A DNA stretch of 64,000 bases from an uncultured bacterium (GCA_964429225.1 CAYSAW010000002.1:33293-97292); one strand, 5' to 3'; positions 6,843-44,604 are shown, numbered from the stretch's first letter. Numbers and translations: made by a program. The notes: generated by a model from the letters alone, not told the origin.

Positions 6843-7547
6843 ATGGCTCGAAGATACCAGAGAGGCTTTACCCTCATTGAGCTCTTGGTAGTGATTGCGA
6901 TCATAGCCATTTTGGCAGCCATTCTCTTCCCCGTCTTCGCCCGGGCCCGAGAAAAGGCTCGGCAGGCTCATTGCTTCAACAATATGAAGCAAATAGGGCT
7001 AGCGATGATGCAATATGTCGAGGATTGGGATGGTTATTTCCCCTCCCACGACGATGGAGACCGCTTCTTTGAGCAATTTCGCCTCCAGGTTTACGCCAAA
7101 AGTGAAACCTTGTGGATTTGCCCTAGTGACAACGCCCCTATCTCCGCCAACCGGTGGATTAAGGAAGGGGGAAGAATGGTTCAGCGAAGCTATATCTGGA
7201 CCTCAGAGGTCATCGGCTATAACCCTGGCACTGCAGGCCCCGACGGGCATATCGGAGAGGTTAATTTAACTGATATCCGGGAACCCTCAGAAACGATTGC
7301 TATGGCGGAGAAGAGAACAGGGGTGGCAGACTTCCATTTGGATTGGCCTCAAGATATCCTCCCTCCGATAACAGGTACGGATTCCCTAGAAAAGCGGAGG
7401 CATAACGGGGGCGCCAACTTCATCTTCGCCGATGGACACGTTAAATGGATGAAATTCTCTCAAACTTTTTTCCCCAAAAACCTATGGGTCCGGGATAAAG
7501 CCTTCTGGGCAACCCGGCTCCCCAAAAACCTCAAAATTATTGACTGA
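6843..7547 (+). CDS. Prepilin-type N-terminal cleavage/methylation domain protein with DUF1559 C-terminus
   Basis: N-terminus [27 protein letters not shown] (class III signal/pseudopilin motif). C-terminal [16 protein letters not shown] typical of DUF1559. Confidence 0.8.
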
Positions 7548-21538: not shown

Positions 21539-22168
21539 ATGAAAACACGCAAAGGTTTTACCCTGATCGAGCTCCTTGTTGTTATCGCTATCATCGCTAT
21601 TCTTGCTGCCATTCTCTTTCCGGTTTTCGCTTCGGCCCGTGAGAAAGCCCGGGCAACCAGCTGTATGAATAACCTGAAACAGATGGGGGTGGCGATCCTC
21701 CAATACGCCCAAGACTGGGACGAAAATTTCCCTAGTGGTCACTTCATCCAGCAGTCCGGGGAGGCTGGCCAAAAGGAAACCAATTGGCAAGAAGCTCTGC
21801 TATCTTATCACCGAAGCTGGGATATTTACCGCTGCCCTTCTGACCCCTCCGACTTCCGGAGTAGCTACCTCCTCAACGGATGGTACTCCGACGAAATTGA
21901 GGGAACAAAACGCTCTTTAGGTGACATTCGCCGCCCCTCGGAGAGTATCATTATTGTGGAGCGAGACCACAATGCGGCAATCCAGTTGGGGGATCCTGAG
22001 AAGGACGACTACGAACCCTGGCTTCCTTTAAACCAGTGGAGGCCTCTTATCGCAGACCAACGCCATAGCAAAATGGCGAACTACCTGTTTGTAGATGGCC
22101 ACGTCAAGGCCCTTAAGTTCGAGCAAACCTACGATCCCCCACGAGTGGATATGCACAATCCCGGATAA
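21539..22168 (+). CDS. Prepilin-type N-terminal cleavage/methylation domain protein with DUF1559 C-terminus (paralog of 6843..7547)
   Basis: [35 protein letters not shown]-terminal [14 protein letters not shown]. Confidence 0.8.
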
Positions 22169-22199: not shown

Positions 22200-24536
22200 A
22201 TGAGGCAGAGTTGTCGAAAAAAGGGGGTGACTCTTAAGTCACCCCTTTACATCCTTCTCTTACTCTCTCTTTCTCTCCCCTCCCTCTTTTTCTCTAGTTG
22301 TAACCTCAAGCCCCGGGTACAACCCTATCCTCCAGCTCGTAATCAGAGCAAGGAGGAGTGGGTGCTTTCTACTTTCAGCCCTTATCGCCATTATGGAGCC
22401 TATTTAGGAAATGGGTATATGGGTCTAATTGTTGGACCTGATGGTACAGGTATCCCCACAGAGAAGGCAGGTCAATCCCAAATCAGCGGCTTCTACAGCC
22501 AGGAGCATATGGTGGAAACCCCCCGCTGGGGAGGGGTCTATGCCTTCTTAGGAAAACACCCGATTATCCCCTTTGAAACACCTTCAGAGAAAGCTCCTAT
22601 AGAACAGAAAAAAGAACCCCTTAAAGAATATCCCGTTGATCATTACTCTCAACATCTAGACCTCCTCAAGGGAGTTCTGAAGACCTCTTATCTTCACCTC
22701 CCTACCCAAATTCAAGTGAATACTCAATTCTTGATTCACCGAGTATACCCAGGTCTTGCTCTAATAAAAGTGTCCTTCTTCAAGCAAGGATCAGTCAAAC
22801 CTTTAACCCTTCGTGTCCCCTTGCAAAGAGGAAATCCTGAAGGGATGGTTAGTTCCCCTCTTCTGGGAAGGGATCTGAAGACAGGTGATTTCTGGATTGT
22901 AGAGACCACCACGGACGGCAAAAAGTTAGCTACCGTTTGCAGGCTTAGCTCTGAAGACAAACAGTTAACTAGCATCAGGTTGATCCGCCAACCCCGAGGT
23001 TGGATAGCCGAAGTCACCCTCCCTTGGCAGAAAAAGCCAGCTTCACCCCGAAACCACCCCCCGGAAGATAGGGATATTTTTTCTCGTATCAGTCTTCCTT
23101 TTCGGAGAAGAAAACCAGAGCGATTTATAACAGATATCACTAAATGGATTAGTGTAGCAACCTCTTTAGAGGGGCCTGATCCCCTTAAACTAGCCCGTGC
23201 TCAGCTCGAGAAAGCCTGGAGACAGCGTTGGTCCTCTCTGTACGAAGAGCACACAGAAGCTTGGCAGAGGCTCTGGCAAAAGGCCGATATCCACATTATA
23301 GGCCAAGGGGAAAGAACACGAGAAGAGCAACAAATCCTCCGAGCAGGACTGTTTTATCTCCTCAGCAGTGTTCGACCGGGACAAGATCATTCCATCCCCC
23401 CTATGGGCTTATCTAGTCGGGCTTGGGGAGGACATATTTTTTGGGATGCAGATATGTGGATGTTTCCTGTGTTAAGCCTGCTTCACCCCAATCTCGCGCA
23501 TTCTATCGTTGAGTATCGGTGGAAGACCCTGCCTGGAGCGAGGGAGAACGCCCGCAAAGGGGCCGAGGCGGTGAGTACTCGAAGAAAGCCTCCGATCCCT
23601 CCTCCCCCCTACGCTGGGGCTAGCTTTGCCACCGAAAGCGCAGAAACCGGTCGGGAAATAGCCCCAGCTGAATTTCCCCGAGAACGCCACAACGTCTCCG
23701 ACGCTGCGTTGGCCCAGTGGAACTATTACCTCCTTACCGGAGATAAAAAATGGCTGGCTCAAAAAGGCTATCCCGTAATCCAAGCGGCAGCTCAGTACTG
23801 GGCCAGCCGAGTTTGGTATAATCCCAACCGAGACCGCTATGAAATCTTAGGAGTAGTATCCCCCGATGAGACAGCCGGAATCGTGAATAACGACGTTTAT
23901 ACTAACGCAGGAGCCAAGAGAACTCTGGAGGTTGCTATCCGAGCAAGCCAGCTCCTGGGCAAACCCTATCCTCCTCTTTGGAAAAGGATTGCGGAGAAGA
24001 TGTACCTCCCTTACCACCCCCGAGAACACCGGTACATAGAGCATGATGGCTTCCGAGAAGGGCGCCGAATTAAGCAAGCAGATGCTGAATTGATCATCTT
24101 TCCCCTGGGATTACCCATGCGGGAGGAGGTAAAACGGAATACCCTCGAATATCACCAGCGGCGCGTTAGCCCCCGGGGACCAGCGATGACCGATGCCATC
24201 CATTCGATCATTTATGCGGAGCTAGGAGAATGCTCAAAGGCTTACCAATCCTTCCGCAAATCTTTTGAGGAATTCCTCCGCCCCGCCTTTTACCTCTTCT
24301 CAGAAAAGCGCTCCACCGATAACTGCTGTTTCCTGACCGGTTACGCAGGCACTCTAATGGCAGTTCTTTACGGTTTTGGAGGCCTTCGCTTTGACGAACA
24401 AGGGTTGAAAATAAAGCCCTGCCTCCCTCCCCATTGGAAAAAGTTGGAAGTCAAAGGGATTCATTTCCGAGGGAAGGTTTACCGCCTTACCATCGAGCAA
24501 GGTAAACCCTATTGTCTTGAGGAGAAGCCTGCCTAA
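22200..24536 (+). CDS. Glycoside hydrolase family 65-like protein (six-hairpin (alpha/alpha)6 glycosidase/phosphorylase), probable lipoprotein
   Basis: AWGGHIFWDADMWMFP resembles the GH65 central-domain FWDTE(I/T)(F/Y)MxP motif. N-terminal signal with lipobox-like LFFSSC. 778 aa. Confidence 0.65.
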   Translation: MRQSCRKKGVTLKSPLYILLLLSLSLPSLFFSSCNLKPRVQPYPPARNQSKEEWVLSTFSPYRHYGAYLGNGYMGLIVGPDGTGIPTEKAGQSQISGFYSQEHMVETPRWGGVYAFLGKHPIIPFETPSEKAPIEQKKEPLKEYPVDHYSQHLDLLKGVLKTSYLHLPTQIQVNTQFLIHRVYPGLALIKVSFFKQGSVKPLTLRVPLQRGNPEGMVSSPLLGRDLKTGDFWIVETTTDGKKLATVCRLSSEDKQLTSIRLIRQPRGWIAEVTLPWQKKPASPRNHPPEDRDIFSRISLPFRRRKPERFITDITKWISVATSLEGPDPLKLARAQLEKAWRQRWSSLYEEHTEAWQRLWQKADIHIIGQGERTREEQQILRAGLFYLLSSVRPGQDHSIPPMGLSSRAWGGHIFWDADMWMFPVLSLLHPNLAHSIVEYRWKTLPGARENARKGAEAVSTRRKPPIPPPPYAGASFATESAETGREIAPAEFPRERHNVSDAALAQWNYYLLTGDKKWLAQKGYPVIQAAAQYWASRVWYNPNRDRYEILGVVSPDETAGIVNNDVYTNAGAKRTLEVAIRASQLLGKPYPPLWKRIAEKMYLPYHPREHRYIEHDGFREGRRIKQADAELIIFPLGLPMREEVKRNTLEYHQRRVSPRGPAMTDAIHSIIYAELGECSKAYQSFRKSFEEFLRPAFYLFSEKRSTDNCCFLTGYAGTLMAVLYGFGGLRFDEQGLKIKPCLPPHWKKLEVKGIHFRGKVYRLTIEQGKPYCLEEKPA

Positions 24537-36103: not shown

Positions 36104-37171
36104 TCAAGGTTTTAGAGGCACGGGTGTTTTTTCGCCTTCCATTAACCACAAAGGTTGGCTCCAAGCAAAAGCTCCCTTAGACCCTTCCGCCTCCACCCGG
36201 ATATAACCCTCATCCCCTCTAACAGCGTACTCAGCACCATTCCCCTCCTCCACCTTCAGCTCGCGCCCCCAACGACCGATAAACCGAATACGTTGCCCAT
36301 TAGAAGTGACCACTCTTAAAGTCGAGTCTCGATATTCGAGCAGTGTAAAGTAAACCCCTGTTGAAGAGTAAAAACTTCCTTGTTGAATGGCCAAAAGGAT
36401 CTGCGAGGGATGAGGAGGGCCACTGAAGTTAGGCTCCAAGCCTACCATAATCCAACCCTGCCCTATATCCTCCCAGCGATGGGCGTCATCGGTAGCAAAT
36501 CCCCAAACCAGCCGACCCTCCGAAAGTAACTGATCCCATCGGTCCAAGGCATAAGGAGTCCCCTCTAACCGCCGAATAACCCCATTAAAAATTTCTATAC
36601 CCCAATATCCCTCCAAAGAGAACATATCGGGAAGGGGAAAATGGTTAAAATGAGTCTGCCATTTCGGATGATTAAGGATGGCAATACCTCCCTGCCTCTG
36701 AACTTGGTTGATGACCTCCTGACGATCTTTCGTTTTCTCTAAAGGTGAAGAAAGCCCCACACAGAGGATATGAGCTCCTCCTCCTGCTTCCAAGGCAGGA
36801 ATCAGAATCACGGGAGTACGATGGAGGACCTCCTGGGGATCCGTAAGGTGATCATGGTCGGAAAGAGCCAGAAAATCGTACCCTCGCTCCGCATAAAGAC
36901 GAACAAGATCCTCCGGAGCGTAAGCCCCATCGCTGTTAGTAGTATGGCTGTGAAGGTTACCCCGGTACCAACGCCTTCGGAGATGAGTCCAAGGTCCGAA
37001 AGAAACCTCCATTGAAGGAATCCACTCCTCAGAGAAATATTCAAATAGGGGTTCTGTTATCCCCGATAATCTTTTCCCTGAGAGCCTAGCGTATCCTTTA
37101 GAAAACACTGATGAAACTTCTTGTTCTTTGCTGTCGTCTAACATACGGAAAGTGAAATTCCTCCCTTGCAT
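36104..37171 (-). CDS. PHP-domain metallohydrolase (CehA/McbA-like)
   Basis: GNLHSHTTNSDGAYAPEDLV...GYDFLALSDHDH, PHP-domain His/Asp metal ligands. 355 aa. Confidence 0.75.
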   Translation of the reverse strand: MQGRNFTFRMLDDSKEQEVSSVFSKGYARLSGKRLSGITEPLFEYFSEEWIPSMEVSFGPWTHLRRRWYRGNLHSHTTNSDGAYAPEDLVRLYAERGYDFLALSDHDHLTDPQEVLHRTPVILIPALEAGGGAHILCVGLSSPLEKTKDRQEVINQVQRQGGIAILNHPKWQTHFNHFPLPDMFSLEGYWGIEIFNGVIRRLEGTPYALDRWDQLLSEGRLVWGFATDDAHRWEDIGQGWIMVGLEPNFSGPPHPSQILLAIQQGSFYSSTGVYFTLLEYRDSTLRVVTSNGQRIRFIGRWGRELKVEEGNGAEYAVRGDEGYIRVEAEGSKGAFAWSQPLWLMEGEKTPVPLKP

Positions 37172-37259: not shown

Positions 37260-38525
37260 ATGATGAAGAACCACTCTCTTTTGCACAAGCGAACCAAAGG
37301 CTCTGCCCTCATCATCGCGATTTTTGTACTCGTCGTGCTTGTTGGATTGGTTGTTTCTCTAGGAGCGGGAAGCCGGGTTGAATTGAAGTCCGCTTCCAAT
37401 TTCGCTAATCGAACTCAAAGCCGAGCCTTGGCAGAAGCCGGCCTTAACCTGGCTATGGCTGTCCTCCAAAACGACTCCACTCCTGGTCAGGATGACTTAA
37501 CAGAAGATTGGGCTTTACTAGGGTCCTCGGGCACTGAAGTCTTCGATTTAGGGAATGGACACTTCCAAGTACAGATTATTGACGCGAGTTCGCGTTTAAA
37601 CGTGAACACCGCTACCCGGGAGCAACTCTTGACTCTGCCCGGGATGACCGAAGAGATCGCCGACTCTATCCTCGATTGGAGGGACAGTGACGACAACCCT
37701 CGCACCAATGGGGCTGAAGGTGAGTACTACCAAACCCTTCAGCATCCTTATAATCCCAAGAACGGGCCTTTTGACACCTTAGAAGAACTCCTTTTGGTTA
37801 AAGGGATGACCCCCTCTCTCCTCTACGGTGATCCAACGGAAGAGGTAACGGATACCTTTGGTCAGATTCAAAAACCTCTGGTAGAACTATTAACAGTCCG
37901 CTCCTACGAACGCAACGAAGATTCTTCCGGGCAAAGAAGACAAAACTTAAATAGCCTGGGGTTACAAGAACTGATGAGTCTACCCGACGCCAATCTTACC
38001 CAAGAACAAGCCCAGGCGATTATCCAACGACGAACACAAATCGGGCAATTCAACTCGGTAGCAGATCTATTAGACGTCAATGGATTAACTCCTGAAATTG
38101 TTGGCCGACTTTATGACCATCTTACCACAACCCAAGCAGAACGCCTAGAAGGGAGAATCAACATCAATACTGCGGATACGACTATTCTCTTAACCCTTCC
38201 TGGAATGACCGAAGAGATCGCCCAACAGATCGTTGATCGGAGGCCTTATGCCAATGTTGGCGAATTATTAACTGAGGGAGTGTTAAATGGCGAACAATTT
38301 CGACAAATAGCCCCTTGGCTTTGCACTAAATCTTCGATCTTTATTATTCGGAGCATCGGGTATCTTTCTACCACTTCAACCCCTTCGGGTAGGCCGGAGG
38401 GGTATGTTGCGCTAGAAGCCCTGGTGGAACGAACCGATAACGGGGTCCGGCTCCTCCGCAAAAAGGAGGTCCGCTGGTGGCCTGGTTGGAAATCTTGGGG
38501 CTGGGGTTTAGAGGGATCAACGTGA
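37260..38525 (+). CDS. GspK-like minor pseudopilin (type II secretion / type IV pilus system protein K)
   Basis: N-terminus KGSALIIAIFVLVVLVGLVVSL (GspK-type prepilin-like segment). Two helix-hairpin-helix-like repeats (LNVNTATREQLLTLPGMTEEIADSI... and ININTADTTILLTLPGMTEEIAQQI...). The track ORF starts at 37128, but the family N-terminus begins at MMKNHS. Confidence 0.7.
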   Translation: MMKNHSLLHKRTKGSALIIAIFVLVVLVGLVVSLGAGSRVELKSASNFANRTQSRALAEAGLNLAMAVLQNDSTPGQDDLTEDWALLGSSGTEVFDLGNGHFQVQIIDASSRLNVNTATREQLLTLPGMTEEIADSILDWRDSDDNPRTNGAEGEYYQTLQHPYNPKNGPFDTLEELLLVKGMTPSLLYGDPTEEVTDTFGQIQKPLVELLTVRSYERNEDSSGQRRQNLNSLGLQELMSLPDANLTQEQAQAIIQRRTQIGQFNSVADLLDVNGLTPEIVGRLYDHLTTTQAERLEGRININTADTTILLTLPGMTEEIAQQIVDRRPYANVGELLTEGVLNGEQFRQIAPWLCTKSSIFIIRSIGYLSTTSTPSGRPEGYVALEALVERTDNGVRLLRKKEVRWWPGWKSWGWGLEGST

Positions 38526-40309
38526 GCAAGCACAAGATTTTTTGGGGATTAGACCTAGGAAGTAGCGCGATTAAGCTCGTCCGCCTGGAAGAAACGGGCG
38601 ATGTTCTCAGTTTACAGACTTTCGGGCCTGTGCCCTTGGAATCCCCCTCCCTCCCTCTTCCGCAAGAACTTCTCATCTCTGGCTTAAAAAATCTGTTGGG
38701 GAGTCTTAACCGCCCCCCGAAAAGCGTGGTCGCCGCTCTCCCTCGGCATTTAGCAGTAGTCAAATTCCCAGCCCTCCCCAAAGCGGAGGAACCCCAGTTT
38801 GCCCAAATGGTGAAGCTAGAGGCTCAGCGATATGTCCCTTTTGCCCTCGAAGAGGTAGTCCTAGACTTCCACCCTTTAGGCTCTTTCCCCGATCCAGTTA
38901 TCTCAAAAGTACCTCGAGCAGAAAAAGAACGCATCCCCGAAACCGCCTCCTCAGGCTCTCCTCTAGCCGAAGTCTCCGGAGAAGTCCCCCAAGGCATATC
39001 CTCCCCTCCCTTGCCCTCAATGCCGGTAACTCCGGGGGTCTCGGAGTCCCTAGTGGAAGTCCTCCTCATCGCGGTTCAGCGAAACGTGGTCACCAACTAT
39101 TGGCGTGCTCTGAAAAGTGCCAATCTTCACTGTGAGCGATTAATGGTTAGCTCTCTTGGGTTAGCCTCCCTCTATCTTTATTCAGAAGCGGAGAATGCTC
39201 CTCCAGGAGTAGACCTGCTCTTGGATTTGGGGGGGCGGTCCACCGTTGTTACCGCCTTCAAAAAGGGGAAGATGATCTTCAACCGGGCGGCGACAGTAGG
39301 ATGCGATAGCCTTACCACCGCCTTGCAGTCAGATTTAAACATCAGCCTCTCTGAAGCCGAAGTCTGGAAGAGGGAACGAGGGCTAACTCTGCTCCAAAGC
39401 ACAACAGATTTACCCCATACTCAAAATTGGGTTCAAAACTTTCTCTCAGAAGTCCGCCGGTCGGTAGCTGCACTAACCTCAGAGCGAAGGGATGCAGTGC
39501 CCCAGCGAGTACTGATCGCCGGAGGAGGAGCCAAACTCCCCGCTTTAAGAGACTTGCTGGAGGAAGAGCTGGGTCTGCCCGTACTGCTTTTGCCTACCCA
39601 CTCTCTCCCGGCAGATCCTCAATTTATGGAAGCCACTGGACTGGCCCTTTTGGCCCTGTTGTCTCATAAGGACTCTTCAACCGCTTGCCCTTCTATCAAC
39701 CTTGTTCCTCCAGAGGTCGTTATTGAGGCTCAACGAAGCCGTCGGCTCCGGGTGATGCAAGGGGTGGGAACAGGGTTTGGAGTCCTTCTCCTTGCAGCAG
39801 GATATATTGGCTGGCAAAGCCTTCAGGAGAGAGCGGAAGAAGTGGCCCGGGTCCGGGCCGCCCAGCAAACTGTTCAACAGGTACAAAGGCAAGCCGATAC
39901 CATTAGCAAAAAAGTGAAAACTCTAGAAGAACAGATCGAGCTTCTAGAACCCACCCTTAATCCCAGTGCCACTTATCTCGATATTCTCAACGATATGGTC
40001 CAGCGAATGCCCGAGGGATTATGGTTAACCGGGATTACCTTAGAAAAGGGAAAACCTCTGGTTCTCCGAGGAACCGCTACCGGAAACGGCCCGATCGCCC
40101 AGTTTACCTCCGATCTGGGGAAATCCCCCTATCTCCAAGCCGTTACCCTCACCTACGCTAATGAGGCGACTATTGGAAACACCAAGGTCGTCCAGTTTGG
40201 GATTACCGCCCAAATTCGAGGCAATAAACCCAAACCCCAGAGAGTCCGTCGAGCTCGAACGCGTCCGGTAAGAGGTGCCAGCAGTGAGTCTGAGTCAACT
40301 CTCCGTTAG
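38522..40309 (+). CDS. PilM-PilN fusion protein (type IV pilus inner-membrane platform; GspL-like architecture)
   Basis: N-terminal actin-like PilM (IFWGLDLGSSAIKLVRLEE...). A later segment, INLVPPEVVIEAQRSRRLRVMQGVGTGFGVLLLAAGYIGW, matches the PilN N-terminal INLLP motif plus TM helix, followed by a coiled coil. A GTG at 38522 overlaps the gspK-like stop (GTGA); the alternative ATG is at 38477. Confidence 0.8.
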   Translation: MSKHKIFWGLDLGSSAIKLVRLEETGDVLSLQTFGPVPLESPSLPLPQELLISGLKNLLGSLNRPPKSVVAALPRHLAVVKFPALPKAEEPQFAQMVKLEAQRYVPFALEEVVLDFHPLGSFPDPVISKVPRAEKERIPETASSGSPLAEVSGEVPQGISSPPLPSMPVTPGVSESLVEVLLIAVQRNVVTNYWRALKSANLHCERLMVSSLGLASLYLYSEAENAPPGVDLLLDLGGRSTVVTAFKKGKMIFNRAATVGCDSLTTALQSDLNISLSEAEVWKRERGLTLLQSTTDLPHTQNWVQNFLSEVRRSVAALTSERRDAVPQRVLIAGGGAKLPALRDLLEEELGLPVLLLPTHSLPADPQFMEATGLALLALLSHKDSSTACPSINLVPPEVVIEAQRSRRLRVMQGVGTGFGVLLLAAGYIGWQSLQERAEEVARVRAAQQTVQQVQRQADTISKKVKTLEEQIELLEPTLNPSATYLDILNDMVQRMPEGLWLTGITLEKGKPLVLRGTATGNGPIAQFTSDLGKSPYLQAVTLTYANEATIGNTKVVQFGITAQIRGNKPKPQRVRRARTRPVRGASSESESTLR

Positions 40310-40841
40310 AGAAAAAATCCTCATCGCTTTAGCTCTCTTGGTCGCCCTTGTTTTCGGCATTCCCGCCTTACAAGGAATGTGGGATACCTTTGCTGGAACC
40401 GGAGGCCTAACAGTGGAAAAAGTACACCTCCAGCGCCAGCAACTCCAGCAAAAAATAACCCAACTCCAAGAAAGCGAAGAGCAGTTAAAAGGTAAAGTAG
40501 CCCAATTAGGTTATGAACAACCTGCAGAAACCATTATCCCTTTTCTTGTTCGCAAGATTGAGGCTCAGGCCCGAGCCGATCAGGTTCATCTTAATAGCCT
40601 TCGCCCTCTACGCCCCCGAAACCTAGAGGTGGTCACCGAAATCACCCTGGAAGTCCAACTCAAAGCCGATTTCCCCAACTTCGTTCGCTTCCTCTACGCC
40701 CTCTACGATCCGGAACTTAAACTCTCCATTGACCGAGTAAGAATCTCTTCCGGGAATGAAGAAACAGGGGAAGTAGATGTAGACCTCGCTCTCTCTGCCT
40801 ATTCTCTGAAGGCTTCCCCTACTTCCTCCAACCGCTCTTAA
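40275..40841 (+). CDS. PilO-like type IV pilus assembly protein
   Basis: Single N-terminal TM (ILIALALLVALVFGI), a coiled coil (LQRQQLQQKITQLQESEEQLKGKVAQL), then an alpha/beta domain. Sits immediately after PilMN. GTG start overlaps the upstream gene. Confidence 0.65.
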   Translation: MPAVSLSQLSVREKILIALALLVALVFGIPALQGMWDTFAGTGGLTVEKVHLQRQQLQQKITQLQESEEQLKGKVAQLGYEQPAETIIPFLVRKIEAQARADQVHLNSLRPLRPRNLEVVTEITLEVQLKADFPNFVRFLYALYDPELKLSIDRVRISSGNEETGEVDVDLALSAYSLKASPTSSNRS

Positions 40842-41069: not shown

Positions 41070-41903
41070 GTGGAAACAATGAAAATCATCAAGGGATGGA
41101 ACATTGTAGGGCTGATCATCCTTCTGTTGATCTCCTGCCTCAGCTGGATTTTCGCCCGCTCAAGTTCTCATCAACCTTTGCGGATTCCTTCTCCCCCAAA
41201 TTACTCCAAGGGAGGGAAACAGAATCCGAAGAAAGAGATCCACTTCAACGGCCATTCCCAAAGACAGATAGCCCGTTATTTACCGCTTCTCAAGAATAAT
41301 CCTTTTCTTCCTCCTTGGAAGAAAAGTCGAACGGTTTCTCCTCTCTCCTCGAATCCCCTAGGACCTCTTCCTCCCCTGGACCCCGCTCACTTGGAGCTCC
41401 GTAAAAATATTGTCTCCTCTTATAAAAACTGGGTTTACGCAGGTTATGCAGAAACAGAAGAAGGGCCTATAGCCCTACTAGAGCACCAGAAAACGAAGCA
41501 AGGGAGGTTTCTCTCTTTGGGAGGGCAATTGGAGGAAGCGAAGGTTTTCCTCCTTTCCCCCACAACCCTCTGGCTAACGGATCACGCTGGCAAGAAGTAC
41601 ATCCTTCCCTTAAACCAGCCCAACCTCTCCCCTCCCACTTCCAAAGAAGGCGCGAAAGGGGAAAAAGGGAAAAGTCCCGCAAGCAGTCCACCTAGTGGAG
41701 GAGGGTCTTCATCGGTTCCTGGGAACATCAATGCTCCTTATCTACCCCCACCGATAAAACCCTTTCCTCCCCAATCAGTAGGGCTGGATCAAGCTGGAAT
41801 CAAAAAACCCGTAGGGCTAGATCAAGAGGGTGCTAAAAAACTGGAAATCAATGGGGAACAAGGCTTCCAGCAACCGTTGCCTATGAAGATCGAAAAACAG
41901 TAA
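41070..41903 (+). CDS. Hypothetical membrane-anchored, proline-rich protein; possible PilP analogue
   Basis: N-terminal TM (IVGLIILLLISCLSWIF). Pro-rich low-complexity C-terminus with a tandem 11-aa repeat, VGLDQAGIKKP / VGLDQEGAKKL. Sits in the PilP position between pilO and the secretin. Confidence 0.4.
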   Translation: METMKIIKGWNIVGLIILLLISCLSWIFARSSSHQPLRIPSPPNYSKGGKQNPKKEIHFNGHSQRQIARYLPLLKNNPFLPPWKKSRTVSPLSSNPLGPLPPLDPAHLELRKNIVSSYKNWVYAGYAETEEGPIALLEHQKTKQGRFLSLGGQLEEAKVFLLSPTTLWLTDHAGKKYILPLNQPNLSPPTSKEGAKGEKGKSPASSPPSGGGSSSVPGNINAPYLPPPIKPFPPQSVGLDQAGIKKPVGLDQEGAKKLEINGEQGFQQPLPMKIEKQ

Positions 41904-41925: not shown

Positions 41926-44604
41926 TTGAAAGAAAAGCGAGGGAGGCAAAGTATGGATAGGAAGGTGGTGCTAATGCGTGGGACCCCTTTACTCTTAGCT
42001 ATTTATCTTTCAATCTGTTGGAGTTTTGCCCAACAAAAACCTGAGGGAAACATCCCTTCGGGAACTTCCCCCTCTCCTCAAAGCTCAACGACACAACCCG
42101 GTTTCTCAGGGGTTCCTAGCTCCGGAGCTAGGTCCCCCCAGTCCTCTTCTTCTTCAAGCAAGCAACATCCTCCCTCTCCTAACCTAGCCCAAATTTTAGG
42201 CCCCCTCCCCCGGAAGATGGTCTCAATGGATTTTCGGGGAGCGGATATAGACAATGTGCTCCTCTTTTTCAGTATGCAATCCGGAATTACCATTCTCAAG
42301 GACCCCTCTCTCACTGGCCCGGTAACGTTAATTAACGCTCGAAAGATCCCTCTACTCGAAGCTTTCCGGATTCTTGAAGCCGTACTTAACCAGAAGAACT
42401 TCACTCTTCGGCGAGAAGGCCCTCTTTTAAGAGTGGTGCCGAAAGGCCCCCCTCCTCAGCCAAGCCCCCCCTCTCAGGGCCCCCAACCTCTGACTCCTTC
42501 GCCAGAGCCGAAGAAAGAGAAGGAGACGAAGGTCTATCCTCTCAAGTACGCCAGCGCTCGGGCGGTAGCCAATATTATTAACGAGCTCTTCCGAGAAGGC
42601 CCTGCTCCCGGTGAACCGGGTGGCCCACCCAAAGGCCCTCCTCCCGGCGGTCCGCCCGGAGGCCCACCCGGACAACAGCAGCAAAAACCTTCTGCCAAAG
42701 CCTCAGCTGACGACTTCACCAATTCCGTTTTGGTAGTGGCCGATCGGGAATTGATACCCGATATCGATAAAGTCGTCCAGCAAGTGGATCAACCAACGGA
42801 GACCCCTCTGGAAACCCGGGTTTTCACCCTCCAATATGCGGATGCCACTGAGATGGCTTTGCAAATTGGCCCTATCCTCCAAACTCTACAGTCTGCCGGC
42901 CGAGGAGCGGTAACCCCCACAGGAACGGACGTTCCTTTTGAGCGCCGGATCTTCTTCGGTTCCTCTGCCCCTATCAGCATCGCAGGAGGCCGGGTGATCG
43001 CCGATGTACGCACCAACTCCCTCATCATCACCGCCTCTAAAGAAGTGCTTGATAAAATTGAAGACATCATTAAAAAGCTGGATGTTCCTGTAGAATATCA
43101 GACTACTACGGAGGTCATCCCTCTGAAAAATGCGGACGCCTCGGAGGTCACCTTCTTACTAGGGCAACTCTTCCAGGAACAACGTCGGCCCCAAAGCTTC
43201 TTCGAATTCCTCTTCTTTGGAGGCCCACAGCAGCAGAGAGGTCAAACGCGCCAACGCTTCCGACTAGGGGACCCCCGATCTAGCCGGCCACGAACCCAAA
43301 GGGGTTCCTCCTTCTTCCTCCCTGGCGCTTCCCAAGAACGGCTGAACAATGAGGAAGGCTTTCTTATGGCAAGCCTCTTCCCTCCTGGCGAACTTCCGAA
43401 TGAAGAGCGTGGGGCTTTTGCTCGGCCTTTCTCCCTTTCTCAAGGGAAAGGCCCCACCCGAGAAGCAGAACGACTGCTTCAACGGTTAAAATCTCTTGCT
43501 ATACGGTCGGGGAGGGGTTATCCCTTTTCCCAAACCTCTTCCAACCCCCCAGAGGAAGAGGACCAAGAAGTAGACCCCTCGTCGTTTGAGTTTGAACCTG
43601 CCCAGTTTTTTGGCTTTGAACTTCCCCGCCGCGGTTCTGAAACCCAAGTGGGCCGAGATCCCCAAGGGCGTATCCGCCCTCTCGTCAATCTTCCCGGCAA
43701 TGTGACCATTGTTCCCGATCTCAATACCAATAGCCTCATCATCAATACTAGCCCCTCCAATATGGAGGCCCTGAAACAGTTGATCAGCCAGATTGACATT
43801 GTCCCTGCCCAAGTTCTCATTGAGGCCATTATCGTTGAAGCAGTCCTCGATAAATCCAGCAAGTTAAGCCTGCGTTTGAATCTAACCGAGACGAATCCTT
43901 TTGGGCAACAAGGAGCAGGAGCCACCACAACAATAGACCTCCCCATAGGTGGAGGGGTACAGGGAGGGTTAAGATATAGCATCGTTGGGGCGTCCTTTGA
44001 CGCTCTCCTCCAAGCCTTACGCAGTGACCGAAGGTTTAATGTCCTGCAAACTCCCCGGATCCTAACCCAAAACAACCGCCAAGCAGCGATCAACATCAGC
44101 CAGGCCTTTCCTATTCTACGGTCCACAGCAACCTTTGGAGCAGCTGCTACCAACATTGATTTCATTGATATTGGGGTTATCCTTGATGTAACCCCTCATA
44201 TTACCCCGGGTGATTATGTGAACATTGAGGTAAGCCAAGAGGCCAATGAAATCCAAGGTTTTACCACCCTGAACAACAACCAAGTGCCCATCATCGCCCA
44301 GCGTAATACTGAAACCACAGTAACAGTGAAAGATGGTCAAACTATTATTATCAGTGGTTTGATCAAAGATACCGTCACTCGAAACGAAAACCGGATACCT
44401 ATCTTAGGTGACATCCCCTTGATCGGTCGCCTTTTCCGGTCTATAGACAAACAAAGAAGCAAAACAGAGTTAATGATTTTCCTAACCCCTCATATTGTCA
44501 AAAACCCAGCGGAAGTCCAAGATTTGACTTTTAAGCAGAGGGAGCAACTCCACGTAAAGCCCCGGTTCCCCGAAGAAGGCCCCCCGGAGAAGAAAAAACC
44601 TTAA
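41926..44604 (+). CDS. Secretin (PilQ/GspD family) with long low-complexity insertions
   Basis: C-terminal secretin domain: NVLQTPRILTQNNRQAAINISQAFPIL...TIIISGLIKDTVTRNENRIPILGDIPLIGRLFRS...KTELMIFLTPHIV. N-terminal N-domains are present. A Gly/Pro insert PGEPGGPPKGPPPGGPPGGPPGQQQQ lies at about 42600-42700. Confidence 0.85.
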   Translation: MKEKRGRQSMDRKVVLMRGTPLLLAIYLSICWSFAQQKPEGNIPSGTSPSPQSSTTQPGFSGVPSSGARSPQSSSSSSKQHPPSPNLAQILGPLPRKMVSMDFRGADIDNVLLFFSMQSGITILKDPSLTGPVTLINARKIPLLEAFRILEAVLNQKNFTLRREGPLLRVVPKGPPPQPSPPSQGPQPLTPSPEPKKEKETKVYPLKYASARAVANIINELFREGPAPGEPGGPPKGPPPGGPPGGPPGQQQQKPSAKASADDFTNSVLVVADRELIPDIDKVVQQVDQPTETPLETRVFTLQYADATEMALQIGPILQTLQSAGRGAVTPTGTDVPFERRIFFGSSAPISIAGGRVIADVRTNSLIITASKEVLDKIEDIIKKLDVPVEYQTTTEVIPLKNADASEVTFLLGQLFQEQRRPQSFFEFLFFGGPQQQRGQTRQRFRLGDPRSSRPRTQRGSSFFLPGASQERLNNEEGFLMASLFPPGELPNEERGAFARPFSLSQGKGPTREAERLLQRLKSLAIRSGRGYPFSQTSSNPPEEEDQEVDPSSFEFEPAQFFGFELPRRGSETQVGRDPQGRIRPLVNLPGNVTIVPDLNTNSLIINTSPSNMEALKQLISQIDIVPAQVLIEAIIVEAVLDKSSKLSLRLNLTETNPFGQQGAGATTTIDLPIGGGVQGGLRYSIVGASFDALLQALRSDRRFNVLQTPRILTQNNRQAAINISQAFPILRSTATFGAAATNIDFIDIGVILDVTPHITPGDYVNIEVSQEANEIQGFTTLNNNQVPIIAQRNTETTVTVKDGQTIIISGLIKDTVTRNENRIPILGDIPLIGRLFRSIDKQRSKTELMIFLTPHIVKNPAEVQDLTFKQREQLHVKPRFPEEGPPEKKKP

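What the first reader, a model, noticed from the sequence alone, without database searches (positions are those of the whole stretch)
38522..40309. PilM and PilN fused in one polypeptide, with a roughly 55-aa Pro/Ser-rich insertion inside the PilM actin-like domain
The PilN hallmark INL(V/L)P plus TM helix occurs at about aa 400 of the same ORF that begins with the PilM actin-like fold. That gives a GspL-like architecture built from Pil-type modules. In addition, a low-complexity segment (PDPVISKVPRAEKERIPETASSGSPLAEVSGEVPQGISSPPLPSMPVTPGVSES) interrupts PilM between conserved blocks.
Basis: seen in the sequence. Interest (0 to 1): 0.45.

Follow-up and report, generated by a model that had tools for sequence, protein, structure and literature searches.

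The report
Fused PilM-PilN pilus platform protein
This gene really does join two normally separate parts (PilM and PilN) of the membrane platform that builds type IV pili and type II secretion filaments, but the fusion is common in this bacterial group and described elsewhere, and the extra Pro/Ser-rich stretch looks like a species-specific floppy loop, so the finding is real but ordinary.

Summary
One uninterrupted ORF (38477 or 38522 to 40309, + strand; 610 or 595 aa) encodes these parts in order:
- a complete PilM actin-like domain
- a 14-residue linker
- the PilN INLVP motif
- one transmembrane helix
- a coiled coil
- the PilN periplasmic domain

It is not a frameshift artefact. The gene is base-for-base identical in two other assemblies. 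It is intact in an 88%-identical sister species. Of the 150 best representative clusters plus the query, 132 of 151 sequences are fused in the same way.

Every close relative that carries an organism name is from an Armatimonadota MAG, and GenBank calls these proteins simply "pilus assembly protein PilM". A natural PilM-PilN fusion is already published for Clostridioides difficile, and GspL/PulL is textbook "PilM+PilN".

The 55-aa Pro/Ser-rich segment (aa 122-176) is a true insertion. Fused relatives have a median of 14 residues at this site, against 65 here. It sits between two strands of a beta-hairpin and is predicted disordered (pLDDT below 50). It evolves about ten times less constrained than its flanks (dN/dS 0.39 against 0.04-0.05). 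Only this species and its sister have it.

The gene lies in a conserved cassette: gspK-like, pilMN, pilO/gspM-like, an unknown gene, then a secretin.

Verdict: a new member of a known kind, of low interest.

The parts
37263..38525 (+). gspK-like minor pseudopilin with HhH repeats; first gene of the cassette. The longest ORF starts at 37128; gene callers start it at 37263.
   Evidence: NCBIfam T2SS_GspK scores 161.1 bits against a cutoff of 130. Pfam T2SSK_1st, T2SSK and HHH_3 also match.
38477..40309 (+). pilMN, the fused PilM-PilN gene. 610 aa from the GTG at 38477, or 595 aa from the GTG at 38522.
   Evidence: Uninterrupted ORF. Pfam PilM_2 and PilN both match. The DNA is identical in two other assemblies. 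The start is ambiguous: AGGAGG lies 7 nt upstream of 38477.
38522..38884 (+). PilM actin-like domain, N-terminal part (aa 1-121), including the phosphate-1 motif GLDLGSSAIK.
   Evidence: Aligns to M. xanthus PilM 36-162 and T. thermophilus PilM 16-131. pLDDT is 84-96. D11, G13 and K18 are conserved in the family.
38885..39049 (+). Lineage-specific Pro/Ser-rich insertion (aa 122-176), a predicted disordered loop between two beta-strands.
   Evidence: pLDDT is below 50 for aa 124-173, between strands E112-121 and E177-186. The site holds 65 residues here against a median of 14 in relatives. dN/dS is 0.39 with one in-frame codon indel against the sister species. No repeats were found.
39050..39661 (+). 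PilM actin-like domain, C-terminal part (aa 177-380), with the phosphate-2 motif (LLDLGGRST) and adenosine motif (IAGGGAKLP).
   Evidence: Aligns to PilM 173-363. pLDDT is mostly above 90. D235, G237, G334 and G335 are conserved.
39662..39709 (+). Junction: an 11-aa linker (SHKDSSTACPS) followed by the PilN N-terminal motif INLVP (aa 392-396).
   Evidence: In the fused family the motif columns are conserved: L394 in 128 of 135 sequences and P396 in 119 of 135. The linker is 5-6 residues longer here than is usual in the family. The family profile aligns through the junction of the engineered PilM:PilN1-12 chimera 5EOU.
39710..39814 (+). Basic juxtamembrane stretch (RSRRLR) and a single transmembrane helix (hydrophobic core aa 411-429).
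   Evidence: Hydropathy maximum at aa 411-429. AF2 predicts a helix at 397-431.
39815..40219 (+). PilN periplasmic coiled coil (aa 432-484) and alpha/beta domain (aa 485-566).
   Evidence: Pfam PilN matches aa 488-565. The family profile matches M. xanthus PilN at 4e-19 and T. thermophilus PilN 4BHQ. pLDDT is 89-96 for aa 491-570; helix 439-479.
40220..40306 (+). Basic C-terminal tail (aa 567-595), predicted disordered.
   Evidence: pLDDT is below 50 for aa 579-595. Similar basic tails occur in P0003 and P0004.
40284..40841 (+). pilO/gspM-like partner gene; it overlaps the end of pilMN.
   Evidence: Pfam T2SSM_b 5e-07 and PilO 8e-07. NCBIfam GspM_XpsM 2.9e-10, which is below its cutoff.
41079..41903 (+). 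Conserved unknown gene with a TM helix and Pro-rich segments. By position it is a candidate PilP/GspC equivalent.
   Evidence: It occupies the same position in L007, L009 and L010. It has no Pfam or PDB hit. There is a weak NCBIfam GspC_delta hit, E 0.0085.
41926..44604 (+). Outer-membrane secretin, GspD-type.
   Evidence: TIGR02517 type_II_gspD scores 393.1 bits against a cutoff of 351. Pfam Secretin, Secretin_N (3 copies) and the GspD N0 domain match.

Best explanation
The gene encodes the inner-membrane assembly-platform protein of a type IV filament machine, in the T2SS / type IVa pilus group, of an uncultured bacterium that is most likely from the Armatimonadota. It is a natural in-frame fusion of PilM and PilN.

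Proposed working of the protein:
- The cytoplasmic PilM part is a complete FtsA-like actin fold that keeps its nucleotide-binding motifs.
- Its C-terminus runs through a 14-residue linker into the PilN N-terminal motif (INLVP), the peptide that in split systems docks onto PilM.
- A basic stretch and a single TM helix follow.
- On the periplasmic side, a coiled coil and an alpha/beta domain pair with the PilO/GspM-like product of the next gene.
- Through the following unknown gene, this subcomplex would connect to the GspD-type secretin.

Functionally this is what GspL does in type II secretion. By sequence and fold the modules are PilM and PilN.

The 55-aa Pro/Ser-rich segment is a recent, lineage-specific expansion of a variable hairpin loop. 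It is disordered and weakly constrained. Most likely it is a tolerated surface loop rather than a new functional module.

Shown here: the domain content, the colinearity, the conservation of the fusion, the conservation of the cassette, the predicted disorder and the relaxed selection on the insert. Inferred from knowledge of the families: the partner interactions, ATP binding, docking of INLVP onto PilM, and what the machine produces (secretion or a pilus).
For: Domains and fold:
- Pfam PilM_2, FtsA and PilN all match the one ORF.
- PDB sequence hits are PilM proteins, with a gap at the insert.
- The AF2 model has mean pLDDT 82.8, and both domains are above 90.
- The top Foldseek hit is the PilM:PilN1-12 chimera 5EOU. 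TM-scores are higher to the PilN-bound forms (0.77-0.79; 5EOU chains B and A, 2YCH) than to PilN-free PilM (0.63-0.66).
- The family profile matches PilM at 1e-89 and PilN at 4e-19. It runs colinearly through the junction of 5EOU, profile positions 3-357 to chain residues 11-369.

The fusion is real and common:
- The DNA is identical in SRR11582145 and SRR11582147, and a third variant differs by 3 aa.
- The sister species (88% identity) carries it on 5 contigs.
- 132 of 151 sequences (the top 150 representative clusters plus the query) are fused.
- Of 57 relatives scanned, 57 carry PilM_2 and 56 carry PilN.
- The named relatives are Armatimonadota proteins annotated as PilM.

Motifs: INL[LV]P and the nucleotide-binding motifs are conserved in the fused family.

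Cassette: gspK-like, pilMN, pilO/gspM-like, unknown gene and secretin are kept in the same order in relatives at 37-38% identity and at 88%.

Insert:
- pLDDT is below 50 for aa 124-173.
- The site holds 65 residues against a median of 14.
- dN/dS is 0.39 against 0.04-0.05 in the flanks, amino-acid identity is 65% against 93%, and there is one in-frame indel.

Literature:
[quoted passage not shown] - T2SS were assigned to Armatimonadetes by phylogeny (PMC6668835).
Against: - The rest of the machine (ATPase, platform protein, major pilin, prepilin peptidase, and any PilT) is not in the window. Whether it secretes proteins or makes a pilus is therefore open.
- The phylum assignment rests on the names of relatives at 28-40% identity. 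A housekeeping gene gave no clear taxon.
- NCBIfam pilM (TIGR01175) scores 129.7 bits, just under its cutoff of 133.
- I could not read the model's coordinates, so docking of INLVP on the PilM domain, in cis or in trans, is not shown.
- The N-terminal third of the insert (PVISKxPRAEKERIP) is well conserved between the two species and is partly echoed in P0026. A short functional motif there is not excluded.
Confidence: 0.85

Rival explanations
1. The fusion is an assembly or sequencing artefact: a lost stop codon or a frameshift between adjacent pilM and pilN genes.
For: In split systems the two genes can lie one codon apart in the same frame. In L003 the junction reads ...GLALRKV*EMIEINLLP, so a single base error could mimic a fusion.
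Against: - The gene is identical over 1833 nt in two independently assembled runs. A third variant has 3 substitutions and no disruption.
- The sister species at 88% identity has it intact on 5 contigs.
- 132 of 151 sequences (top 150 representatives plus the query) are fused.
- dN/dS across the junction segment is 0.16, which indicates a translated, constrained sequence.
Confidence: 0.01
2. The protein is the true GspL of a type II secretion system. That is, it is an orthologue of proteobacterial GspL/PulL/EpsL, not a PilM-PilN fusion that arose separately.
For: - It sits between a gspK-like gene (above the NCBIfam GspK cutoff) and a gspM-like gene, and a GspD-type secretin (above the TIGR02517 cutoff) lies downstream.
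- Of 57 fused relatives, 14 give weak Pfam T2SSL hits, the best at 1.3e-07.
- T2SS were assigned to Armatimonadetes by phylogeny (PMC6668835).
Against: - The query itself has no T2SSL, GspL_C or TIGR gspL hit at E <= 0.1.
- The nucleotide-binding motifs and the PilN INLLP motif are retained. From general knowledge, the GspL cytoplasmic domain lacks them.
- This rival is about ancestry only. The functional equivalence to GspL is part of the best explanation.
Confidence: 0.1
3. The Pro/Ser-rich insertion is a functional module. It could be a regulatory disordered region on the cytoplasmic PilM ring, for example a phosphorylation target or a docking site for the ATPase or a regulator.
For: - dN/dS of 0.39 is below 1, so some purifying selection remains. 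The length is nearly preserved between the two species (55 against 54 aa).
- The first 16-18 residues are almost identical in the two species, and a related P-DP...PRA pattern appears in P0026.
- The segment is rich in Ser and Thr.
Against: - It is absent from all 124 other fused relatives, including those at 40-43% identity, which have only 23-30 residues at the site.
- It is the least constrained segment of the protein.
- No structure is predicted for it, and no family matched the region.
- Other proteins of the same cassette also carry Pro-rich low-complexity stretches. That points to a general tendency of this organism.
Confidence: 0.2
4. The inserted segment is a standard PilM subdomain, or a mobile insertion such as an intein or a repeat element.
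For: None beyond its position inside a conserved domain.
Against: - Solved PilM structures and split PilM proteins have 6-12 residues at this site.
- No direct or inverted repeats flank it.
- It has no intein-like size or motifs, as read directly from the sequence.
- The reading frame is maintained across an indel between the two species.
Confidence: 0.01

Closest known systems
Clostridioides difficile PilMN (natural PilM-PilN fusion of a type IVa pilus; Melville & Craig 2013, as cited in PMC6916266 and PMC7057214)
   Same: It has PilM and PilN in one polypeptide, encoded next to pilO.
   Different: It comes from a monoderm host with no secretin or gspK-like neighbour. PMC6916266 proposes a different PilM-PilN contact motif in monoderms, whereas the protein here keeps the diderm-type INLLP motif. 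I did not compare the sequences directly.
Armatimonadota fused 'pilus assembly protein PilM' proteins in GenBank (e.g. MBW3625476.1, MCC6442567.1, NIM05492.1, HOM80699.1)
   Same: They have the same PilM_2 + PilN architecture at 28-40% identity. Unnamed relatives at 37-38% identity (P0003, P0004) lie in the same gspK / pilMN / pilO / unknown gene / secretin cassette.
   Different: They lack the 50-aa loop expansion, having 12-30 residues at the site against 65 here. Their PilM-to-INLLP linker is 5-6 residues shorter.
GspL / PulL / EpsL of type II secretion systems
   Same: The architecture is the same: cytoplasmic actin-like domain, one TM helix, and a periplasmic domain that pairs with GspM. 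The gene position between gspK and gspM is also the same. The literature describes PulL as corresponding to a PilM-PilN fusion (PMC10191384).
   Different: There is no detectable sequence match to the GspL families. The fold is much closer to PilM and FtsA. The nucleotide-binding motifs and the PilN N-terminal motif are retained.
Engineered P. aeruginosa PilM:PilN(1-12) chimera (PDB 5EOU) and the T. thermophilus PilM-PilN peptide complex (PDB 2YCH)
   Same: These are the best structural matches. In 5EOU the PilN N-terminus follows the PilM C-terminus in the same order, and the family profile aligns straight through that junction.
   Different: 5EOU is artificial and stops after 12 PilN residues. 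The natural protein continues into the TM helix and the periplasmic domain, and it carries the loop insertion.
Amuc_1101 family PilM-like pilus complex protein (NCBIfam NF045709; Akkermansia)
   Same: This is the best NCBIfam hit. The profile is of similar length (608 positions), and the match runs from the second half of PilM into the membrane and coiled-coil region, profile positions 129-487.
   Different: The score is 138.5 bits against a cutoff of 650, so this protein is not a member.

Membership tests
PilM (Pfam PF11104 PilM_2 / NCBIfam TIGR01175) | Sequence match above the family's curated cutoff | tested here: met
   Pfam PilM_2 scores 94.5 bits against a cutoff of 27. NCBIfam TIGR01175 scores 129.7 against 133, just under, with the match split in two by the insert.
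PilM (Pfam PF11104 PilM_2 / NCBIfam TIGR01175) | FtsA-like actin fold | tested here: met
PilM (Pfam PF11104 PilM_2 / NCBIfam TIGR01175) | Nucleotide-binding motifs (phosphate-1 DxGxxxxK, phosphate-2 DxG, adenosine GGG) | tested here: met
   D11, G13, K18, D235, G237 and G334-G336 are present and conserved in the family. Binding itself was not tested.
PilM (Pfam PF11104 PilM_2 / NCBIfam TIGR01175) | Binds the N-terminal peptide of PilN | not testable with these tools
   The motif is present 14 residues after the PilM domain. The model is closer to PilN-bound than to PilN-free PilM structures. I could not inspect the model's coordinates.
PilN (Pfam PF05137) | Sequence match above the cutoff for the periplasmic domain | tested here: met
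   49.6 bits against a cutoff of 22.8, at aa 488-565. The family profile matches M. xanthus PilN at 4e-19.
PilN (Pfam PF05137) | Conserved N-terminal INLLP motif, then a basic stretch, a single TM helix and a coiled coil | tested here: met
   INLVP at aa 392-396, RSRRLR, hydrophobic core at 411-429 and a helix at 439-479.
GspL (Pfam PF05134 T2SSL, PF12693 GspL_C; NCBIfam gspL) | Sequence match to the GspL cytoplasmic or periplasmic domain models | tested here: not met
   No hit at E <= 0.1 in Pfam or NCBIfam. No GspL chain appears among the 60 PDB sequences listed (E up to 0.15) with the family profile. Only 14 of 57 relatives give weak T2SSL hits.
GspL (Pfam PF05134 T2SSL, PF12693 GspL_C; NCBIfam gspL) | Bitopic architecture: cytoplasmic actin-like domain, one TM helix, periplasmic domain | tested here: met
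GspL (Pfam PF05134 T2SSL, PF12693 GspL_C; NCBIfam gspL) | Gene lies between gspK and gspM in a T2SS operon that includes gspD | tested here: met
   The GspK and GspD models score above their cutoffs. The GspM model matches at 2.9e-10, below its cutoff. The gene order is conserved in relatives. gspE, gspF and gspG are not in the window.
Amuc_1101 family (NCBIfam NF045709) | Score above the equivalog cutoff | tested here: not met
   138.5 bits against a cutoff of 650.

The most novel reading that the evidence does not exclude
The Armatimonadota cassette (gspK-like, pilMN, pilO/gspM-like, unknown gene, gspD-type secretin) may preserve an intermediate on the path from split PilM + PilN to GspL. 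In this fused protein, ATP binding and the PilN-peptide/PilM-groove contact would still operate, possibly in trans between neighbouring subunits to build the cytoplasmic ring. The species-specific disordered loop on the PilM domain would then be a newly acquired regulatory or docking region. If so, this clade would let the question of why GspL lost nucleotide binding and the docking motif be tested directly.
Probability: 0.1. Interest if true: 0.45.

Novelty: new member of a known kind. Interest (0 to 1): 0.12.

Why it matters
It matters little as a discovery. The fusion confirms in one more lineage what is already accepted: PilM and PilN act as one unit, and GspL is their fused equivalent.

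Two modest points of value remain:
- The fused family keeps the PilN docking motif even though the covalent link already ties the two parts together. This suggests the peptide-groove contact does more than tether. It may set the conformation of PilM or link neighbouring subunits.
- The cassette mixes T2SS-type neighbours (GspK, GspD) with Pil-type platform modules. This shows that the T2SS / type IVa pilus naming boundary is blurred outside the Proteobacteria.

The insertion marks a permissive surface site on PilM. Such a site could be useful for placing tags.

Tried and rejected
- **Genome scan for relatives.** It returned only 4 loci, and the window's own genome was not among them. Three of the four looked fused by tblastn (query residues 9-566). 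On inspection they carry separate pilM and pilN ORFs. In L003 and L004 a stop codon separates them in the same frame, and in L005 they overlap by 4 nt. They are not evidence for fusion.
- **Profile search with the fused alignment in the word-indexed database.** It found no additional fused relatives. The exhaustive representative search was the one that revealed them.
- **Taxonomy from a housekeeping protein (malic enzyme).** It was uninformative. Hits at 64-68% identity came from Acidobacteriota and Planctomycetes alike. The assignment to Armatimonadota rests on the names of PilMN relatives.
- **Rfam scan of the window.** It found only one tRNA and no rRNA.
- **Assigning the unknown gene 41079-41903 to PilP or GspC.** There was no Pfam hit for four homologues at E <= 10 and no meaningful PDB hit with their profile.
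- **Papers.** The McCallum 2016 and Karuppiah & Derrick 2011 papers could not be read. Statements about the PilN-binding groove and about the effect of PilN binding on PilM conformation rest on my own knowledge and on the PDB entry titles.
- **Fold library.** The afdb50 library was unavailable.
- **Promoter and terminator scan of the cassette.** It gave nothing above background that bears on the finding.
- **Repeats.** No repeats were found in or around the insert, so I rejected an origin by duplication or by a mobile element.
Full report
**1. The observation**

The + strand carries one uninterrupted ORF from 38477 (GTG) to 40309, 610 aa. I number residues from 38522.

The true start is ambiguous. 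AGGAGG lies 7 nt upstream of 38477, and gene callers chose that start. The start at 38522 overlaps the upstream stop codon by 4 nt and has a weaker GAGGGA in front of it. The 15 extra residues are identical in the sister species. Only three base differences fall there, so that says little.

Pfam finds PilM_2 in two stretches (E 8e-27), FtsA, and PilN at aa 488-565 (E 4e-13), all above their gathering cutoffs. INLVP is at aa 392-396, followed by RSRRLR and a hydrophobic core at aa 411-429.

Pro plus Ser make up 38% of the insert, against 14% in the rest of the PilM part.

**2. Is the fusion real?**

Yes.
- The 1833-nt gene is identical in contigs assembled independently from SRR11582145 and SRR11582147. 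A third variant differs by three substitutions, none of them disruptive.
- A sister species has the same fused gene at 88% protein identity on five contigs.
- Codon comparison with that sister gives dN/dS of 0.03-0.05 for the PilM and PilN domains and 0.16 for the segment that holds the linker, INLVP and the TM helix. The junction is therefore translated and constrained.
- An exhaustive HMMER search of 1.84 billion representatives gave 8946 hits at E <= 0.001. Of the 150 best plus the query, 132 of 151 carry both the PilM C-terminal half and the PilN domain in one chain, and 126 are full length.
- Pfam scans of 57 of these proteins found PilM_2 in 57 and PilN in 56.

**3. Who has it?**

Every relative for which a source gives an organism name is from an Armatimonadota MAG. 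They are annotated plainly as "pilus assembly protein PilM", for example MBW3625476.1 (40% identity), MCC6442567.1, NIM05492.1 and HOM80699.1.

The window also encodes two prepilin-type DUF1559 proteins next to glycoside hydrolases. From my own knowledge, this is typical of Armatimonadota and the PVC phyla. A malic-enzyme search did not resolve the phylum. "Armatimonadota" is therefore a well-supported inference, not a demonstration.

A more distant fused protein comes from candidate division BRC1 (P0009).

Three loci from the genome scan looked fused by tblastn but are not. In L003 the junction reads ...GLALRKV*EMIEINLLP, with pilM and pilN in the same frame one codon apart. In L005 the two genes overlap by 4 nt. 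The L003 case is instructive: loss of a single stop codon there would give a fusion with about the 8-residue linker that is typical of the fused family.

**4. What kind of modules?**

The modules are Pil-type, not GspL-type.
- The query has no Pfam T2SSL or GspL_C hit and no NCBIfam gspL hit at E <= 0.1.
- The best Foldseek hit is 5EOU, the engineered P. aeruginosa PilM:PilN(1-12) chimera.
- A profile of 57 fused proteins matches PilM at 1e-89 and M. xanthus PilN at 4e-19. It aligns in one piece through the artificial junction of 5EOU, profile positions 3-357 to chain residues 11-369. The natural protein is thus colinear with the crystallographers' construct.
- The actin-fold nucleotide motifs are present and conserved: D11-x-G13...K18, D235-x-G237 and G334-G336. 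So is the PilN motif, with L394 in 128 of 135 sequences and P396 in 119 of 135.
- The model's TM-score is higher to the PilN-bound PilM structures (0.77-0.79) than to PilN-free PilM (0.63-0.66). This fits a docked peptide, but I could not inspect the coordinates.

**5. The insertion**

In solved PilM structures the two blocks that flank the insert are joined by about 6-10 residues. In 124 fused relatives the segment equivalent to query 116-180 has a median of 14 residues, range 12-30. The query has 65 and the sister 64.

The nearest relatives, at 40-43% identity, have 23-30 residues. P0026 shows a P-DP...PRA pattern that resembles the first part of the insert. The loop was therefore already somewhat extended before the Ser/Pro-rich second half was added in this lineage.

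AF2 places the insert between strands 112-121 and 177-186, with pLDDT below 50 for aa 124-173 and no secondary structure. From my knowledge of the FtsA/PilM fold, I place this hairpin in subdomain 1C. I did not test that placement here.

Between the two species the insert is 65% identical, against 93% for its flanks. Its dN/dS is 0.39, against 0.04-0.05, and it differs by one in-frame codon. There are no flanking repeats.

The simplest reading is a tolerated, weakly constrained expansion of a variable surface loop. The other proteins of the cassette also carry long Pro-rich low-complexity stretches, so this seems to be a habit of the organism. A short conserved motif in the first 16-18 residues cannot be excluded.

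**6. Context and mechanism**

The gene is second in a five-gene cassette:
- a gspK-like minor pseudopilin, above the NCBIfam GspK cutoff
- pilMN
- a pilO/gspM-like gene that overlaps its end
- a conserved unknown TM/Pro-rich gene
- a GspD-type secretin, above the TIGR02517 cutoff and below the PilQ cutoff

The same order is kept in relatives at 37-38% identity and at 88% identity.

What follows is inferred from established knowledge of PilMNOPQ and GspLMCD. The cytoplasmic PilM part would form the ring that contacts the assembly ATPase. The TM helix and the periplasmic part would heterodimerise with the PilO/GspM-like protein. The unknown gene is the positional candidate for the PilP/GspC linker to the secretin, but it gave no Pfam or PDB match.

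Denise et al. assigned T2SS to Armatimonadetes by phylogeny (PMC6668835). The ATPase, the platform protein, the major (pseudo)pilin and any PilT lie outside the window. Whether the machine secretes proteins or makes a pilus is therefore undecided.

**7. Comparison with what is known, and verdict**

- A natural PilM-PilN fusion is reported for C. difficile (PMC6916266; PMC7057214).
- NCBIfam holds a 608-position "Amuc_1101 family PilM-like" model that is the best NCBIfam hit here, far below its cutoff.
- Fused Armatimonadota proteins are already in GenBank under the name PilM.

This protein is thus a member of the PilM and PilN families in a known fused arrangement. It works like GspL without belonging to the GspL family. 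The only feature peculiar to it is the 50-residue disordered loop, which it shares with one sister species.

I rate it a new member of a known kind, with low interest (0.12). The most novel reading left open is that this clade is an informative intermediate between PilM+PilN and GspL and that the loop has a regulatory role. I put that at about 10%.

Noticed in passing
window 37263-38525 (+): The GspK-like minor pseudopilin carries four HHH_3 stretches (Pfam 2e-33). It just passes the NCBIfam ComEA helix-hairpin-helix repeat cutoff (TIGR00426, 53.9 against 53.1), in addition to matching the GspK models. Relatives in L007, L009 and L010 show the same pattern. A tip pseudopilin with ComEA-like DNA-binding-type repeats might hint at DNA binding, or the hits may only reflect similarity within the HhH clan.
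   Followed up: no
window 41079-41903 (+): A conserved gene of unknown family lies between the pilO/gspM-like gene and the secretin. It has an N-terminal TM helix, Pro-rich segments and a conserved core (W118, Y120, G122, G142, G148). It occupies the same position in L007, L009 and L010. It has no Pfam or PDB sequence match, only a weak NCBIfam GspC_delta hit (E 0.0085). By position it is probably the PilP/GspC equivalent.
   Followed up: partly
window 41926-44604 (+): The GspD-type secretin (892 aa) contains long Pro/Gly/Ser-rich low-complexity segments, for example GPPKGPPPGGPPGGPPGQQQQ between its N-terminal domains, and a long poorly conserved stretch before the secretin core. The cytoplasmic PilM loop and the unknown gene show the same kind of composition.
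   Followed up: no
window 6843-7547 (+) and 21539-22168 (+): Two proteins combine a prepilin-type N-terminal methylation motif ([25 protein letters not shown]) with DUF1559. The second lies directly upstream of a GH65 glycoside hydrolase (22200-24536). Other glycoside hydrolases (GH38, GH106-like) are nearby.
   Followed up: partly
window 38477-38525: The start of pilMN is ambiguous. The GTG at 38477 has a perfect AGGAGG 7 nt upstream and overlaps gspK by 49 nt. The GTG at 38522 overlaps the gspK stop codon by 4 nt. The three substitutions against the sister species in this stretch do not settle it.
   Followed up: partly
L003 10931-11095 (and L004): In these Thermodesulfobacteriota MAGs, pilM and pilN are in the same reading frame with one stop codon and one further codon between them (...GLALRKV*EMIEINLLP). 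tblastn reads through and makes them look fused. A single substitution would create a fusion with the linker length that is typical of the fused family.
   Followed up: yes
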